A stretch of DNA of 64,000 nucleotides, from NCBI RefSeq assembly GCF_009914755.1, contig NC_060944.1. One strand, 5' to 3'. This document shows positions 1 through 13,809 of the stretch, in pieces. Within the stretch, counting starts at the first letter, position 1; every line of letters begins with the position of its first letter. Made by a program: the position numbers and the translations under genes. Source of the stretch: the human T2T-CHM13v2.0 reference genome, Homo sapiens. Under the pieces are notes generated by a model. That model was given only the letters and a program-made list of their open reading frames with translations. It had not been told where the DNA came from and made no database searches.

Positions 1-1086
1 GTGGAGAGTGGCCTGTAGGGGACCAAGGGTGGAGACAGAGGGCCAGTGAGTAGGCTACTGCACCAGTCCAGGCAAACACTGAAGACCTGTGTATATGTGT
101 TGTTCCCTCGGTCTGTCTCAGGTCTGTTGAATAGTAAGAATGCTTTGCTCTGTTGAAGATGATTCCGTTCTTTACATAAGTAATTAAATGTCTTTCCTTT
201 GCTGTTTCCTGATACCTAAATGCAGTAATATATGCTCATGATAGAAAACTTAGAAAATAAAGAAAAGCATTAAACAATAAAGATTTCCAACTCCTACAAC
301 TCAAAGAAAACAGATAAATCATCCTACTTTAGAGGACTAAATGTACAGGAACTCATTGATTTGCTCATCAAAAGGTGAAGAGGGAAGAGTAGCAGCCCCA
401 GGTAGAGCTACCCAGCAGGCGAGGCTGCCCTCAGGAACCACAGCCTTCCCTTTCCTAATGATTTCTACTCTGTGGCACCCACACTTCCCTCCTCAGGGCT
501 CTGGTGTTATCCTCCTTCTGGGTCTCCATCATATCTGCTCTCAGCAAAAGATCCAGCTCATTCATCCAGCCCCAAGGGACAGGGCTTCACCTCCGGACAA
601 GGGTGAGATGAATGAGGTCTTGGACACAGAATTTAAGAAGTCAAAAACCTCAGCCATCAAGATAAATCATATTAAAATGCAATGGTTTAAAAAATTAAAA
701 TTAATTTTAAAAGTCCATGAACAAAATATAAACATTTAAAATAAAGACAGGGTCCAACCTTGCACCTGCACAGTCCTGCCTTGCTCTCTGCACCCTAACC
801 CAGCCCTGCTCAGCCCAAGAGCTTTGAATCTGAATACAAATCATTCCAGACTTCAAGATCAAGTTAAAGTGTTAATCGTCTACCAGAATGTGATTTCTAG
901 CTTTAAAAAGAAAACCAAGAAAACAACTTCCACATCAATGCAAAGGTTTTCTCATTTCACCAGGTTTTTGTTTTCCGTCTGTTTACCTGATGGTTTACTA
1001 AAGAGGTGAAGAAGTCTGTGGCTGAATGAACACATTGAATAATTGCAGAGACTTAAATTCTCAAATATTCATAAAAATATTTTACC

Positions 1087-1400
<314 letters not shown>

Positions 1401-1450
1401 TAGACCGCTGTGATGACCATCTTCTTATTGACCCTCCTTTGTCTCTGGAG

Positions 1451-1625
1451 CCCCGCCACCTGCCTTCTACCTGGAGCCTTCCTTCCAGGTCCTTCTTCAA
1501 CATCAGCTCCAGGATCTGCAAGATCTTTGGATATGGCCGCTGCAGAAGGAAGGAGAACCACTTCCTGGAGAAGCAGGAGTGAGCCAGGATCTGCCACACA
1601 AGAGAGCCGGGAACCCAGGGCATGG
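1451..1625 (+). pseudogene. Kunitz-domain pseudo-exon, BPTI/PTI-UPTI-TKDP-like
   Basis: After a pyrimidine tract and ggag|, it reads (A)PPPAFYLEPSF / frameshift / RSFFNISSRICKIFGYGRCRRKENHFLEKQE*ARIC. Kunitz spacing from R20 to C55 is exact. C5>Y (TAC), C14 deleted, C51>stop (TGA). Confidence 0.85.
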
Positions 1626-2097
1626 GTTAAGGCGAGGAGCAGGTCCGGAGGGAAGATCTGAGGCAAAGAGGTAGAGTTCACAGGTCCTACACCCCTCGCA
1701 CCTACACAGTGTCCCTCCTCTGATGCTGAGGCTCTCTCTGCCTTCCGAGGAGAAAGTGGCGACGTGTCCTGTGAAACCGCAGACTTAACACATCTTCCAA
1801 AAGCCAGCTTGGCAGGAGGTCACTGCTAGAAGCACCTCTGAAATAATCTGAGCCGTCTTACCTGTTCCCCTTTTTCAGATGGGAACACTGAGGCAGCCAC
1901 CCTGCAGAGTGAGTCTGCAGTGCTCCTGAGCCACCCCCCTCCAGGCTTGGCAAACTCACTGCCTTCTTGTCTGTTGCCTTGACTGCAGGGAGGACCAGAG
2001 GTGCTCATTTCTGGGAGGGTCTAGGATCTGCCAGCTGCACAGTGTCCAAGTCAAGGGCTTCAGCAACGACAATTAACAAATTCCTTTCTCTTTGCAG

Positions 2098-2770
2098 AGA
2101 GCCTGTCACCTGTGCTGCCTTGAGATGCTGACATCTGAGGATGCCCCAGACAGGGCCTGTGGCTGCTTTCTGAAATAGTGCAGCACCTTCTCTGCTTCCT
2201 CCTCAACCTTCTCCTTCACAGCAGAACCCTGCCTCCTTCCTCTCCCCACAGGCTTGTTTCAGCATTGATTTGATCAACTGAGCACCACGAGAACACAAAC
2301 CACATTCCTTTGTTTTTTCATCACGTTACCCCCAGCACTTAGGACAGTGCCTGGCACAAAGGAGGTAGTCTGTAAATATTTGCGTAATGAATGAATAAAG
2401 GAGGGCATGAGTACATCTCCTCTGCCCAGCACGGATGACAGGCTGAGGGTTTGAATCCAGGACTCTCTCACCGTAGCCCTCATTCTCACTGCATCCTCAC
2501 CTTCGTCCTCCACCCCCCACCCCCCCACTGGGTTCCTTGGGGATGGCAGGGGTGGAGTTCCTGGCATCCAGTTCTGAGCATCAGCTCTGCCAAGTAGTGG
2601 TGGCGGGGGGGTTTTCATGAAAGAATCCCCCTCGCTCCCTGTGATGTTGGACATTTTTCCTTGTCTGTGTAGTTTCAGGCTTTGTCTCTCTGGCCTTATA
2701 CAATATTTAAAAACATTCATTTTCCAGTTAAACAAACTGGATTGGATACTGTTGTTTGCAACTAAGAACC
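2098..2770 (+). pseudogene. Terminal exon / 3' UTR remnant of the same Kunitz pseudogene
   Basis: Strong acceptor ttcctttctctttgcag|AG AGC CTG TCA, compared with the BPTI C-terminal E-N-L-stop; downstream sequence resembles the bovine PTI 3' UTR as recalled. The end coordinate is approximate. Confidence 0.6.
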
Positions 2771-12662: not shown

Positions 12663-13809
12663 TTATGGCCCAGAAACTCTTTCTTGGACTGGGCTGGGGA
12701 CTGGCGTGTCCTAGCTGGCTGCACCTCACAGGGCACACATGGGGGAGACTCAGCATCTGGAAAGTAGGGTGTTACTCCCTACTCCTCTTACCTTGAGCTA
12801 GCTCTCCAGTGGGTTTCGAGCTTCAGTGCACAATACATACATGATCTGAAAAGCCTCAAGCTGCAAATCTGGTTTAAAGAGGTCCTGTGTGAGTTGTGTC
12901 TCCAGAAACTTGGCAGAAATGAAGTCTTTCTGGAGGAATCTACCTTTGAGTCCTCAAAGAATTCCCACAAGATAAAGTTCTAAGGCACGAGAGCTCACAG
13001 TCAAAAATTACAAAATAAAAGGGAAGCAAGGCCTGGTGAGAGTCAACTGAAATGACAGAGGATGCAACAAAACCCACACAGCCTAAGATTTCCAAGGATA
13101 GAAAAACAAGAATATCAAACAAGTGTATTAAATATATTGTTCGGGGATGAACACATATGTGGTTAAACTGTAAAGCAAAGCAAAGAACTGATAAGTATAC
13201 ATTTTAAGTTGTTTGCTCTGAGGGGGAAGGAAAGAGAAATGACATTATAGGAACACAGAAGGATTCACAGATCATATTAATATCCTGACAGCAAGCGCTC
13301 ATACATCCACCACCCACATTAATTTCACAAGTGTTTGCTGTGTTGTTATTCTTTGTATTTTCAACATGTCTTATAAATATTATTTTGCTGTCTGTGGTTT
13401 CATAAACACAATAAAAATATAGCTTGGGGCTGGTTCATTCTGATTGCTTGCATGAGTGAGTCCACCTTCTCCCTAACCACCGGACTTCTTATGTTGGGTA
13501 AATATATGGTTGCAAAATTTTTTCCTCCTTTTTCTAAGCTGGGTGGAGAATGTCTTCCCCACATGTTTCCAGTAAATTCAGATGTTGCTTTCTCTGCCCA
13601 TAGTTTCCTTAGGCAGAGGGAATAAATCCCCCTGCTGGCTGTCTAGAACACTTTTTTAAAAACCAATCTCTTATCAGAACTGCCTGTTTCCTTGTCCGTC
13701 TCCCCTGCTGGGCCACTGGGCCTCAAGCGATCCTCCCGCCTCAGCCTCCCAAACTGCTGGGATTACAGTCACAAGCCAGTGCACCCAGTCCCAGATTTTG
13801 TTTTTCTAA

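What the first reader, a model, noticed from the sequence alone, without database searches (positions are those of the whole stretch)
1451..2770. Relic human aprotinin (BPTI/PTI)-family Kunitz inhibitor gene upstream of WFDC2
Seen: a branch-point-like ttgac, a pyrimidine tract and ggag| are followed by CC CCG CCA CCT GCC TTC TAC CTG GAG CCT TCC TTC = (A)PPPAFYLEPSF. After a frameshift comes RSFFNISSRICKIFGYGRCRRKENHFLEKQE*ARIC with exact Kunitz spacing (BPTI numbering R20, F22, N24, C30 at 1517, F33, Y35, G36, C38 at 1541, R39, K41, N43, F45, C51>TGA at 1580, C55 at 1592). Candidate phase-1 donors lie after 1619 and 1625, and a strong acceptor at 2097 starts AG AGC CTG TCA. Recalled knowledge: BPTI reads AQRPDFCLEPPY...YGGCRAKRNNF...ENL*, and pig uterine plasmin/trypsin inhibitor reads PPAFCREPPY...YGGCRGKQNNF. 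The LEP and C-R-x-K-x-N features fit these better than CTI or SPINT3 (G-N-x-N). In cattle, the CTI/PTI/STI/TKDP cluster lies between PIGT and WFDC2. Inference: this is a unitary pseudogene of that lineage, which would make it older than artiodactyls. Exon 1 was not found and probably lies upstream of the window.
Basis: partly seen in the sequence, partly recalled or inferred. Interest (0 to 1): 0.9.

Follow-up and report, generated by a model that had tools for sequence, protein, structure and literature searches.

The report
Dead human Kunitz inhibitor gene relic
Between PIGT and WFDC2 the human genome holds the broken remains of a small protease-inhibitor gene that looks most like cattle aprotinin (BPTI), is now spliced into a non-coding RNA, and suggests this gene lineage may be older than published.

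Summary
Window 1451-1625 is a decayed Kunitz/BPTI exon. It scores 24.6 bits on Pfam PF00014 (cut-off 21) and is the only Kunitz match between PIGT and WFDC2. Family spacing is exact from R20 to C55. A Tyr codon sits at Cys5, 26 nt covering the binding loop are missing, which shifts the frame, and a TGA sits at Cys51. A phase-1 acceptor at 1450|1451, a phase-1 GT at 1626, a short last exon from 2098 and AATAAA at 2394 give the three-exon layout of this locus. RefSeq lncRNA NR_159957.1 uses both acceptors.

It is not the published human CTI pseudogene. I found that CTI exon-1 relic 18 kb away, next to PIGT, on the opposite strand.

A PTI/STI/TKDP (aprotinin) lineage is favoured:
- The N-terminus reads P-A-F-x-L-E-P.
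- A published bovine BPTI primer has its single best match in the window at 1458-1485.
- The acceptor lies 17 nt before Cys5.
- C-R-x-K-x-N is shared with BPTI.
- The ML tree groups it with ruminant PTI-like proteins (88/94).

The assignment is not secure. An AU test does not reject CTI (p 0.53), and the C-terminal 35 residues alone resolve nothing. No exon 1 was found. No mammalian genome DNA was available for synteny.

The parts
1404..1450 (+). 3' end of the intron before the Kunitz exon: branch-point-like TTGAC, a pyrimidine tract and AG at 1449-1450. An Alu-sized masked repeat (1060-1375) lies just upstream.
   Evidence: Sequence. Masked repeat. The acceptor is used by BestRefSeq NR_159957.1, whose exon starts at 1451.
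1451..1486 (+). N-terminal part of the Kunitz exon in frame 1: (A)PPPAFYLEPSF. A Tyr codon (1468-1470) sits at the Cys5 position. The exon starts in phase 1, 17 nt before that codon.
   Evidence: Identity to ruminant PTI-like proteins is 5-6 of 11, against 2-4 of 11 for CTI. The bovine BPTI forward primer matches 20 of 28 at 1458-1485, the unique top among all positions of both strands.
1486..1487 (+). Break: 26 nt are missing relative to family spacing. This removes residues 11-19, including Cys14 and the P1 position, and shifts the frame.
   Evidence: 16 nt where 42 are expected.
1487..1594 (+). C-terminal two thirds of the Kunitz domain in frame 2, R20 to C55, with exact spacing. Cys30, Cys38 and Cys55 are kept, Arg replaces Gly37, and TGA (1580-1582) sits at the Cys51 position.
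   Evidence: Pfam PF00014 24.6 bits. Genome scan 26.8 bits. BPTI 23.1 bits as the best single-domain PDB hit.
1595..1625 (+). Tail after Cys55 (HTREPGTQGMG plus 1 nt), up to the first GT (1626, ATGG|GTTAAG, phase 1). This is the probable ancestral donor, by inference. A TAA follows in frame at 1628.
   Evidence: The tail shows no significant DNA similarity to the BPTI reverse primer region.
1626..1670 (+). Former intron sequence now included in lncRNA exon 3. The lncRNA donor is at 1670|1671 (AGAG|GTAGAG).
2098..2435 (+). Last exon. A strong acceptor (ctttgcag|AG) is followed by xAG AGC CTG TCA ..., giving (E)SLSPVLP and a stop. AATAAA lies at 2394-2399 and the transcript ends at 2435.
   Evidence: Homology to the PTI-family last exon is inferred only from position and a 3-residue resemblance: P0027 ends in ASL.

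Best explanation
Window 1451-2435 is exons 2 and 3 of a dead, non-processed, secreted single-Kunitz-domain protease-inhibitor gene of the CTI/PTI/STI/TKDP group. This is the group that occupies the PIGT-WFDC2 interval in cattle. It is a second gene, separate from the human CTI pseudogene, and most probably the human counterpart of the aprotinin-type (PTI/STI/TKDP) branch.

It can make no inhibitor. The codon for Cys5 is Tyr. A 26-nt gap removes the protease-binding loop with Cys14 and P1 and shifts the frame. Cys51 is a stop. No signal-peptide exon is detectable.

What still works is RNA processing. The old phase-1 acceptor of the Kunitz exon, the acceptor of the last exon and the old AATAAA are used by lncRNA LOC105372631 (NR_159957.1). 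That transcript starts just after PIGT and splices across 18 kb into the relic.

Shown: the domain identity, the breaks, the gene architecture, the transcript usage, and the separate place and strand from CTI exon 1. Inferred: the PTI-branch orthology, the ancestral donor at 1626, and the homology of exon 3.
For: **Domain identity**
- Pfam PF00014 scores 24.6 bits against a cut-off of 21.
- The genome scan gives 26.8 bits, and this is the only Kunitz match in the interval.

**Gene architecture**
- The acceptor is phase 1, as in all genes of this locus (Clauss 2011, Discussion passage).
- There is a 427-nt intron, a short coding last exon and AATAAA.
- RefSeq exons 1451-1670 and 2098-2435 use these sites.

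**Separate from CTI**
- Five of 6 CTI/ELP precursors with a signal peptide hit chr20:47165128-47165187 on the minus strand at E<=0.5, with 50-60% identity and best E 3.6e-4.
- That site carries the start codon and the frameshift described by Pharo 2012.
- The relic lies 18 kb further on and on the plus strand.

**PTI branch**
- In-register identity over the N-terminal 11 positions is 5-6 for 4 ruminant PTI-like proteins and 2-4 for 8 CTI.
- Those PTI-like proteins are true BPTI kin. P0026 aligns over its full length with the BPTI precursor, signal peptide included, at 97 bits.
- The bovine BPTI forward primer printed in Clauss 2011 scores 20 of 28 at 1458-1485. This is the single best of about 128,000 positions; the next best is 18.
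- The Kunitz exon in PTI/STI is 192 bp and in CTI 216 bp (Pharo). The BPTI primers amplified P2 to W from bovine genomic DNA. This leaves 14 or 17 nt before Cys5 in PTI. The relic has 17, whereas CTI needs about 53.
- The C38-R-x-K-x-N motif is shared with BPTI, which is the top single-domain PDB hit at 23.1 bits. For sequences of similar length the comparison is 22.5-22.7 bits for BPTI against at most 19.5 for all 37 local domains.
- The ML tree of 38 rows puts the relic with the 4 PTI-like rows at 88/94.
Against: - The AU test does not reject relic + CTI (lnL difference 0.02, p 0.526).
- The relic's branch is very long (3.9).
- With its N-terminal 11 residues blanked, its nearest rows are TFPI K1 and SPINT3.
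- Over the C-terminal 35 positions, CTI matches 13-14 and ruminant PTI-like proteins 10-13.
- The N-x-S sequon at Asn24 is a CTI/SPINT4 trait. Pharo found none in PTI/STI/TKDP.
- An ungapped frame-2 reading from 1427 also gives 'LEP' at the right register without any deletion. This makes the N-terminal evidence less independent than it looks. I rank that reading lower because its register gets only 15 of 28 with the primer and would make the acceptor phase 0.
- The tail after Cys55 shows no similarity to BPTI DNA.
- No exon 1 was found: the best plus-strand tblastn hit upstream has E 2.6.
- BPTI itself could not be put in the tree.
- Pharo 2012 holds that PTI/STI/TKDP arose in ruminants only 25-35 My ago.
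Confidence: 0.6

Rival explanations
1. The relic is the 'missing' exons 2 and 3 of the human CTI pseudogene, moved 18 kb and inverted. Pharo 2012 wrote that these exons were 'excised or transposed' in primates.
For: The AU test does not reject relic + CTI. CTI has the most C-terminal identities among interval genes, 13-14 of 35. The N-x-S sequon at Asn24 is as in CTI. The tail ...EPGTQ resembles CTI tails ...PPGTR and ...APGSQ. Human CTI lacks its own exons 2-3.
Against: The strand is opposite and the relic lies on the wrong side of CTI exon 1. No single inversion produces that arrangement. The acceptor lies 17 nt before Cys5, not the roughly 53 nt that a 216-bp CTI exon needs. The motif is L-E-P, not Q-L-P. 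The BPTI primer hit also argues against it.
Confidence: 0.15
2. It is a dead lineage-specific duplicate of CTI or of another Kunitz gene of the WFDC locus such as SPINT3. It arose outside artiodactyls, and its BPTI-like residues are convergent or chance products of neutral decay.
For: The C-terminal part alone scores highest with SPINT3 (19.5 bits) and TFPI K1 (19.2) among local domains. With only that part, the tree places the relic by TFPI K1 and SPINT3. The locus is known for repeated Kunitz duplication (Clauss 2011, Pharo 2012).
Against: The N-terminal motif and the exon offset fit PTI. SPINT3 has 29 nt before Cys1, and EPPIN, WFDC8 and SPINT4 have 5. SPINT3 shares 2 of 11 N-terminal positions. 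The relic lies where the bovine PTI/STI/TKDP block lies, between CTI and WFDC2.
Confidence: 0.2
3. It is a chance Kunitz-like pattern in non-coding DNA, and the exons are simply lncRNA exons.
For: The genome-wide E-value is only 0.02. Three of six cysteines are gone.
Against: The score is above Pfam's curated cut-off in two searches. Spacing is exact over 36 positions. It lies in the one interval where relatives lie in cattle. It has a phase-1 acceptor and a three-exon layout. The primer hit is the unique top in the window. A look-alike elsewhere in the window (13246-13347, minus strand) failed Pfam, which shows the test can say no.
Confidence: 0.03

Closest known systems
Bovine pancreatic trypsin inhibitor (BPTI, aprotinin) and its ruminant kin STI and TKDP
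   Same: Both have a single Kunitz domain and a three-exon layout. Both carry P-x-F-C-L-E-P before the loop and C-R-x-K-x-N after Cys38. The relic has 17 nt between the acceptor and the Cys5 codon, which is compatible with the 192-bp PTI exon. Both lie between CTI and WFDC2.
   Different: The relic is broken by a Tyr at Cys5, the lost binding loop, a frameshift and a stop at Cys51. It carries an N-x-S sequon that PTI/STI/TKDP lack. Its tail after Cys55 is 9 nt longer and not similar. No signal-peptide exon was found. The group has been described only in ruminants.
Colostrum trypsin inhibitor / marsupial early lactation protein (CTI/ELP) and the human CTI pseudogene (Pharo et al. 2012, PMC3426482)
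   Same: Same gene group, same interval, same three-exon plan and a sequon at Asn24. CTI is also a pseudogene in human.
   Different: Human CTI exon 1 lies 18 kb away on the other strand. CTI has a 216-bp Kunitz exon with a long N-terminal arm and C-Q-L-P. The paper reports human exons 2 and 3 as absent.
SPINT3, SPINT4 and SPINT5P, the Kunitz-only genes of the human WFDC locus (Clauss et al. 2011, PMC3209443)
   Same: Same locus, the same phase-1 second exon, and small secreted single-Kunitz products. SPINT5P is likewise annotated as a pseudogene.
   Different: Different acceptor offsets, 5 or 29 nt. The N-termini are unrelated, 1-2 of 11. They lie on the telomeric side of WFDC2. That paper's 1.8-Mb six-frame screen found six motifs and not this one.

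Membership tests
Kunitz/BPTI domain (Pfam PF00014) | Profile score at or above the curated cut-off | tested here: met
   24.6 bits against 21 on the 31-aa piece. 26.8 bits in the genome scan.
Kunitz/BPTI domain (Pfam PF00014) | Six cysteines with spacing C-8-C-15-C-7-C-12-C-3-C | tested here: not met
   Only Cys30, Cys38 and Cys55 remain. Cys5 is Tyr, Cys14 is deleted and Cys51 is TGA. The spacing of what remains is exact. It is a relic, not a working domain.
WFDC/semenogelin-locus three-exon secreted-protein genes | Second exon begins in phase 1, followed by a short third exon with the 3' UTR | tested here: met
   The exon starts with codon positions 2-3 at 1451. GT at 1626 is phase 1. Exon 3 starts at 2098 and AATAAA lies at 2394. 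The rule is stated in Clauss 2011.
WFDC/semenogelin-locus three-exon secreted-protein genes | First exon encoding a signal peptide | tested here: not met
   No plus-strand hit better than E 2.6 in 21 kb upstream. A small ORF in lncRNA exon 2 that looked like a BPTI signal peptide by eye gave no PDB hit at E<=10.
PTI/STI/TKDP (aprotinin) lineage | C-L-E-P after Cys5 and P-x-F before it | tested here: met
   PAF-Y-LEP. Identity is 5-6 of 11 to 4 PTI-like proteins and 2-4 of 11 to 8 CTI. The BPTI primer matches 20 of 28 as the unique top hit.
PTI/STI/TKDP (aprotinin) lineage | Kunitz exon of 192-196 bp with a short arm before Cys5 | tested here: inconclusive
   The relic has 17 nt before Cys5. 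With the 26 missing nt added back in the count, its length is about 201 bp. PTI is 192, TKDP 196 and CTI 216. The split of the 192 bp into 17+153+22 is inferred, not read from bovine DNA.
PTI/STI/TKDP (aprotinin) lineage | Monophyly with PTI-like proteins on a tree | tested here: inconclusive
   The clade has 88/94 support, but CTI is not rejected at p 0.526 and the C-terminal part alone gives no signal.
PTI/STI/TKDP (aprotinin) lineage | Orthologous position and orientation relative to bovine PTI/STI/TKDP genes | not testable with these tools
   No mammalian genome DNA is on hand. Gene orientations are in Pharo's Additional file 9, and supplements are closed.
CTI/ELP | Reverse strand next to PIGT, and a 216-bp exon 2 with an arm of about 18 residues before Cys1 | tested here: not met
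   The relic is on the plus strand, 21 kb from PIGT and beyond CTI exon 1. The sequence upstream of 1451 is a pyrimidine tract with stops in frame.
CTI/ELP | Conserved N-glycosylation sequon in the domain | tested here: met
   N-I-S at Asn24 against N-S-T in CTI. The trait is also found in several other human Kunitz domains, so it is weak evidence.
Processed (retrocopied) pseudogene | No introns, and a parent gene elsewhere | tested here: not met
   There is a 427-nt intron with splice signals. No human domain is closer than the bovine proteins.

The most novel reading that the evidence does not exclude
The aprotinin (PTI/STI/TKDP) branch is not a ruminant invention of 25-35 My ago, as published. 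The split from CTI predates the human-cattle ancestor. The two genes stood between PIGT and WFDC2 on opposite strands. Primates lost both, and the human genome still carries the corpse of its own aprotinin orthologue, kept visible because a lncRNA reuses its splice sites and polyadenylation signal.
Probability: 0.5. Interest if true: 0.6.

Novelty: new member of a known kind. Interest (0 to 1): 0.5.

Why it matters
It corrects the published picture of this locus in two ways. A 1.8-Mb screen of the human locus reported six Kunitz motifs and missed this one. The study of the human CTI pseudogene reported that the Kunitz exon had been lost from the interval.

If the PTI assignment holds, the origin of the most-studied protease inhibitor, aprotinin, moves back from ruminants to at least the common ancestor of humans and cattle. 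Its absence in humans then becomes a dated gene loss rather than a gene that never existed.

It also gives the uncharacterised lncRNA LOC105372631 an origin. Its last two exons are the exons of a dead protein-coding gene.

Tried and rejected
**Searches and tests that gave nothing**
- A word search with the relic itself (window 1370-1579, region 31-70) found no candidate. This means only that no named protein shares three 5-residue words with it.
- The BPTI reverse-primer region compared with 1580-1640 scored 9 against a null mean of 11.6. There is no similarity.
- A second Kunitz-like stretch at window 13246-13347 (minus strand) gave tblastn E 0.02-0.13 with 6 queries but no Pfam Kunitz match. 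I took it as chance.
- Signal-peptide searches with P0026 residues 1-38 and P0030 residues 1-44 over the 21 kb upstream gave a best E of 2.6.
- An ORF in lncRNA exon 2 (L001:3366-3440) resembled the BPTI signal peptide by eye, about 10 of 26 against the alignment. It found nothing in the PDB at E<=10 and was dropped.
- The Atlas look-up of P0026 gave Kunitz clusters with phylum-level taxa only. That is no help on the range of the lineage.

**The ungapped frame-2 reading**
This reading runs from 1427 with no deletion, and I considered it seriously. Its BLOSUM62 score against P0027, counted by hand, is about equal to the gapped reading (13 against 12). It too groups with the PTI-like proteins. 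I ranked it second for three reasons. Its register matches the BPTI primer at 15 of 28 rather than 20 of 28. Its extra residues are simply the pyrimidine tract and AG of a used acceptor. It would make that acceptor phase 0.

**Literature**
- None shows this relic described.
- LOC105372631 occurs in one paper (search listing only).
- I read passages and sections 5, 7, 10 and 13 of PMC3426482, and passages and section 5 of PMC3209443.
- I read one passage of PMC1817651, a reference-list entry that held nothing useful.
- PMC1153045, on the BPTI/STI gene structure, is not held.
- The 'ENL' end of BPTI is recalled. The tool output shows only that 3 residues follow the aligned W (chain of 99, alignment to residue 96).

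**Rows left out of the tree**
Six human domains without standard spacing were left out: COL7A1, SPINT4, TFPI2 K2, WFDC6, WFIKKN1 d1 and the chr2 relic. BPTI was also left out because it is not a stored protein.
Full report
**1. What is in the sequence**

- A pyrimidine tract ends in AG at 1449-1450.
- From 1451 the plus strand reads, in frame 1, (A)PPPAFYLEPSF.
- From 1487 it reads, in frame 2, RSFFNISSRICKIFGYGRCRRKENHFLEKQE, then TGA, then ARIC.
- In BPTI numbering, R20, F22, N24, C30, F33, Y35, G36, C38, N43, F45 and C55 stand at exact family spacing.
- The Cys5 position is a Tyr codon (1468-1470).
- The Cys51 position is TGA (1580-1582).
- From the L6 codon to the R20 codon there are 16 nt where the family has 42. 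So 26 nt are missing, and with them residues 11-19: the binding loop, Cys14 and the P1 site.

**2. Is it more than chance?**

- Pfam PF00014 scores the 31-residue piece at 24.6 bits, E 2.9e-5, above the curated cut-off of 21.
- A six-frame PF00014 scan of the whole reference genome lists it among 33 matches, at 26.8 bits with one TGA inside. It is the only match between PIGT and WFDC2.
- phmmer against the PDB returns 77 Kunitz chains at E<=1.
- A control look-alike elsewhere in the window (13246-13347, minus strand) failed the same Pfam test.

**3. Gene anatomy**

- The acceptor at 1450|1451 is phase 1 in the frame-1 reading. Clauss et al. 2011 state that the second exon of every gene of this locus starts in phase 1.
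- The first GT after Cys55 is at 1626 (ATGG|GTTAAG). It is 31 nt after the Cys55 codon, again phase 1, and a TAA follows in frame.
- A strong acceptor at 2097|2098 opens a last exon with a few codons. AATAAA lies at 2394-2399.
- RefSeq lncRNA NR_159957.1 (LOC105372631, BestRefSeq) has four exons: chr20:47163271-47163397, 47165297-47165522, window 1451-1670 and window 2098-2435.
- So the lncRNA uses both old acceptors and ends 36 nt after the old polyadenylation signal. Its donor at 1670|1671 lies 45 nt beyond the probable old donor.
- The 427-nt intron rules out a retrocopy.
- No human Kunitz domain is closer to the relic than bovine proteins are. It is therefore a unitary pseudogene.
- The segment is not in a masked repeat, and RefSeq has no Kunitz pseudogene here.

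**4. Relation to the published human CTI pseudogene**

Pharo et al. 2012 (PMC3426482; passages and sections 5, 7, 10 and 13 read) report the following:
- ELP/CTI lies on the reverse strand between PIGT and WFDC2.
- Human CTI keeps a frameshifted exon 1 but has lost exon 2 (Kunitz) and exon 3.
- Cattle carry CTI next to PIGT, followed by a 602-kb block with PTI, STI and TKDP1-5 before WFDC2.

I fetched the 20 kb upstream of the window. I then searched chr20:47162001-47206000 with 13 proteins obtained.
- Five of the 6 CTI/ELP precursors that carry a signal peptide hit chr20:47165128-47165187 on the minus strand at E<=0.5 (50-60% identity, best E 3.6e-4).
- The start codon is at about 47165212, and a frame change comes after nine codons. 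This matches Pharo's description.

That relic lies 3 kb beyond PIGT. The Kunitz relic lies 18 kb further on and on the other strand. No single inversion turns CTI exons 2-3, which should lie between PIGT and exon 1, into this arrangement. The relic is therefore best read as a second gene.

**5. Which branch of the group?**

*For the PTI/STI/TKDP branch*

(a) Four ruminant proteins (P0017, P0026, P0027, P0030) carry C-L-E-P. P0026 aligns over its full length, signal peptide included, with the BPTI precursor at 97 bits. The relic shares 5-6 of 11 N-terminal positions with them and 2-4 of 11 with eight CTI proteins.

(b) The gene-specific part of the bovine BPTI forward primer printed by Clauss et al. 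scores 20 of 28 at 1458-1485. This is the single best ungapped match among all positions of both strands of the 64-kb window; the next best is 18.

(c) Pharo gives Kunitz-exon sizes of 192 bp for PTI/STI, 196 for TKDP, 216 for CTI and 175 for SPINT4. Clauss amplified BPTI from P2 to the W after Cys55 out of bovine genomic DNA, so that whole stretch is in one exon. With phase-1 borders this leaves 17 or 14 nt before Cys5 in PTI. The relic has 17, while CTI needs about 53. Human SPINT3 has 29, and EPPIN, WFDC8 and SPINT4 have 5.

(d) After Cys38 the relic reads R-R-K-E-N and BPTI reads R-A-K-R-N. All 37 other domains in my set lack the Lys: 35 have Asn there, and COL28A1 and the WFDC8 neighbour d1 differ. 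BPTI is the best single-domain PDB hit at 23.1 bits. For chains of like length the comparison is 22.5-22.7 bits for BPTI against at most 19.5 for any local domain.

(e) An ML tree of 38 rows and 56 columns joins the relic to the four PTI-like rows with support 88/94.

*Against, or limiting*

- The AU test does not reject relic + CTI (lnL difference 0.02, p 0.526).
- The relic's branch length is 3.9.
- With its N-terminal 11 residues blanked, it sits by TFPI K1 and SPINT3.
- Over the C-terminal 35 positions CTI has 13-14 identities and the ruminant PTI-like proteins 10-13.
- The N-I-S sequon at Asn24 is a CTI and SPINT4 trait that Pharo did not find in PTI/STI/TKDP.
- The tail after Cys55 shows no DNA similarity to BPTI.
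- BPTI could not be added to the tree because it is not a stored protein. My counts against it, 5 of 11 and 14 of 35, were made by eye on the alignment.

**6. A second reading of the N-terminus**

Frame 2 can be read without any gap from 1427. It then gives ...PPLSLEP... with L-E-P again at the correct register and Ser and Thr at Cys5 and Cys14. I rank this reading second for these reasons:
- Those residues are the pyrimidine tract and the AG of an acceptor that transcripts use.
- The acceptor would then be phase 0, against the rule of the locus.
- The BPTI primer matches that register at only 15 of 28, a score reached at 138 positions, against the unique top of 20 of 28.

Either reading groups the relic with the PTI-like proteins. 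The two are not independent evidence.

**7. Exon 1 and exon 3**

- No signal-peptide exon was found on the plus strand in the 21 kb upstream; the best E was 2.6.
- The two upstream lncRNA exons have good splice sites but no matching ORF. A 25-codon ORF in lncRNA exon 2 that looked like the BPTI signal peptide by eye found nothing in the PDB at E<=10.
- With one carried nucleotide, exon 3 reads (E)SLSPVLP and then a stop.
- P0027 ends in ASL. BPTI has three residues after the aligned W, which I recall as ENL.
- This is a three-residue resemblance at the right place and no more. CTI last exons also start with Glu.

**8. What it does**

As a gene it does nothing. It has no start, no signal peptide, no binding loop and a premature stop. 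Its acceptors and polyadenylation signal still work for a lncRNA that starts just beyond PIGT. Whether that RNA has any role is unknown. One paper mentions the locus name (search listing only).

**9. Known or new?**

- Clauss et al. screened 1.8 Mb around the locus in six frames and reported six Kunitz motifs, all on the telomeric side.
- Pharo et al. reported the human Kunitz exon as absent.
- RefSeq calls the transcript uncharacterised.
- Seven literature searches found no description of the relic.
- The GENCODE pseudogene track and the supplements of both papers could not be seen. Pharo's Additional files 5, 6 and 9 may bear on the human alignment and on bovine gene orientation.

**10. Verdict**

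This is a real, unannotated unitary pseudogene of the CTI/PTI group, and it is distinct from the CTI relic.

| Claim | Confidence |
|---|---|
| It is a Kunitz gene relic | about 0.95 |
| It belongs to the CTI/PTI/STI/TKDP group | about 0.85 |
| It is the aprotinin-branch counterpart | about 0.55-0.6 |

The last claim would move the origin of that branch from ruminants to before the human-cattle split. It needs cross-species genomic alignment, which these tools do not offer.

Noticed in passing
outside the window: chr20:47165128-47165212, minus strand (locus L001:3128-3212): Human CTI exon-1 relic: a start codon, nine codons, a frame change, then CLAICLVGMTSSEKTSSELK. It is 50-60% identical to CTI/ELP signal peptides. 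It sits about 85 nt from lncRNA exon 2 (47165297-47165522), head to head with it.
   Followed up: yes
window 1060-1375: A masked repeat of Alu size and sequence character ends 75 nt before the relic's acceptor. It lies inside what would have been intron 1.
   Followed up: no
window 13246-13347, minus strand: A translated stretch with C-7-C-11-C-3-C and an N-x-T gave weak tblastn hits to CTI proteins (E 0.02-0.13) but no Pfam Kunitz match. I took it as chance.
   Followed up: yes
G000 chr2:169940949-169941083 (+) (L031) and chr9:32707430-32707537 (-): Two other weak PF00014 matches in the genome scan (32.1 and 23.7 bits), each with two in-frame TAG codons. They are possible further Kunitz relics elsewhere in the genome.
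   Followed up: no
window 2500-2530: A C-rich run (ccaccccccaccccccccac) lies just beyond the lncRNA's 3' end.
   Followed up: no
L001:3366-3440 (+), inside lncRNA exon 2: A 25-codon ORF (MKWTPCLEVVLHTLEGLLGATENVP) resembles the BPTI signal peptide by eye, about 10 of 26. It has no statistical support: nothing in the PDB at E<=10 and no tblastn hit with ruminant signal peptides.
   Followed up: partly
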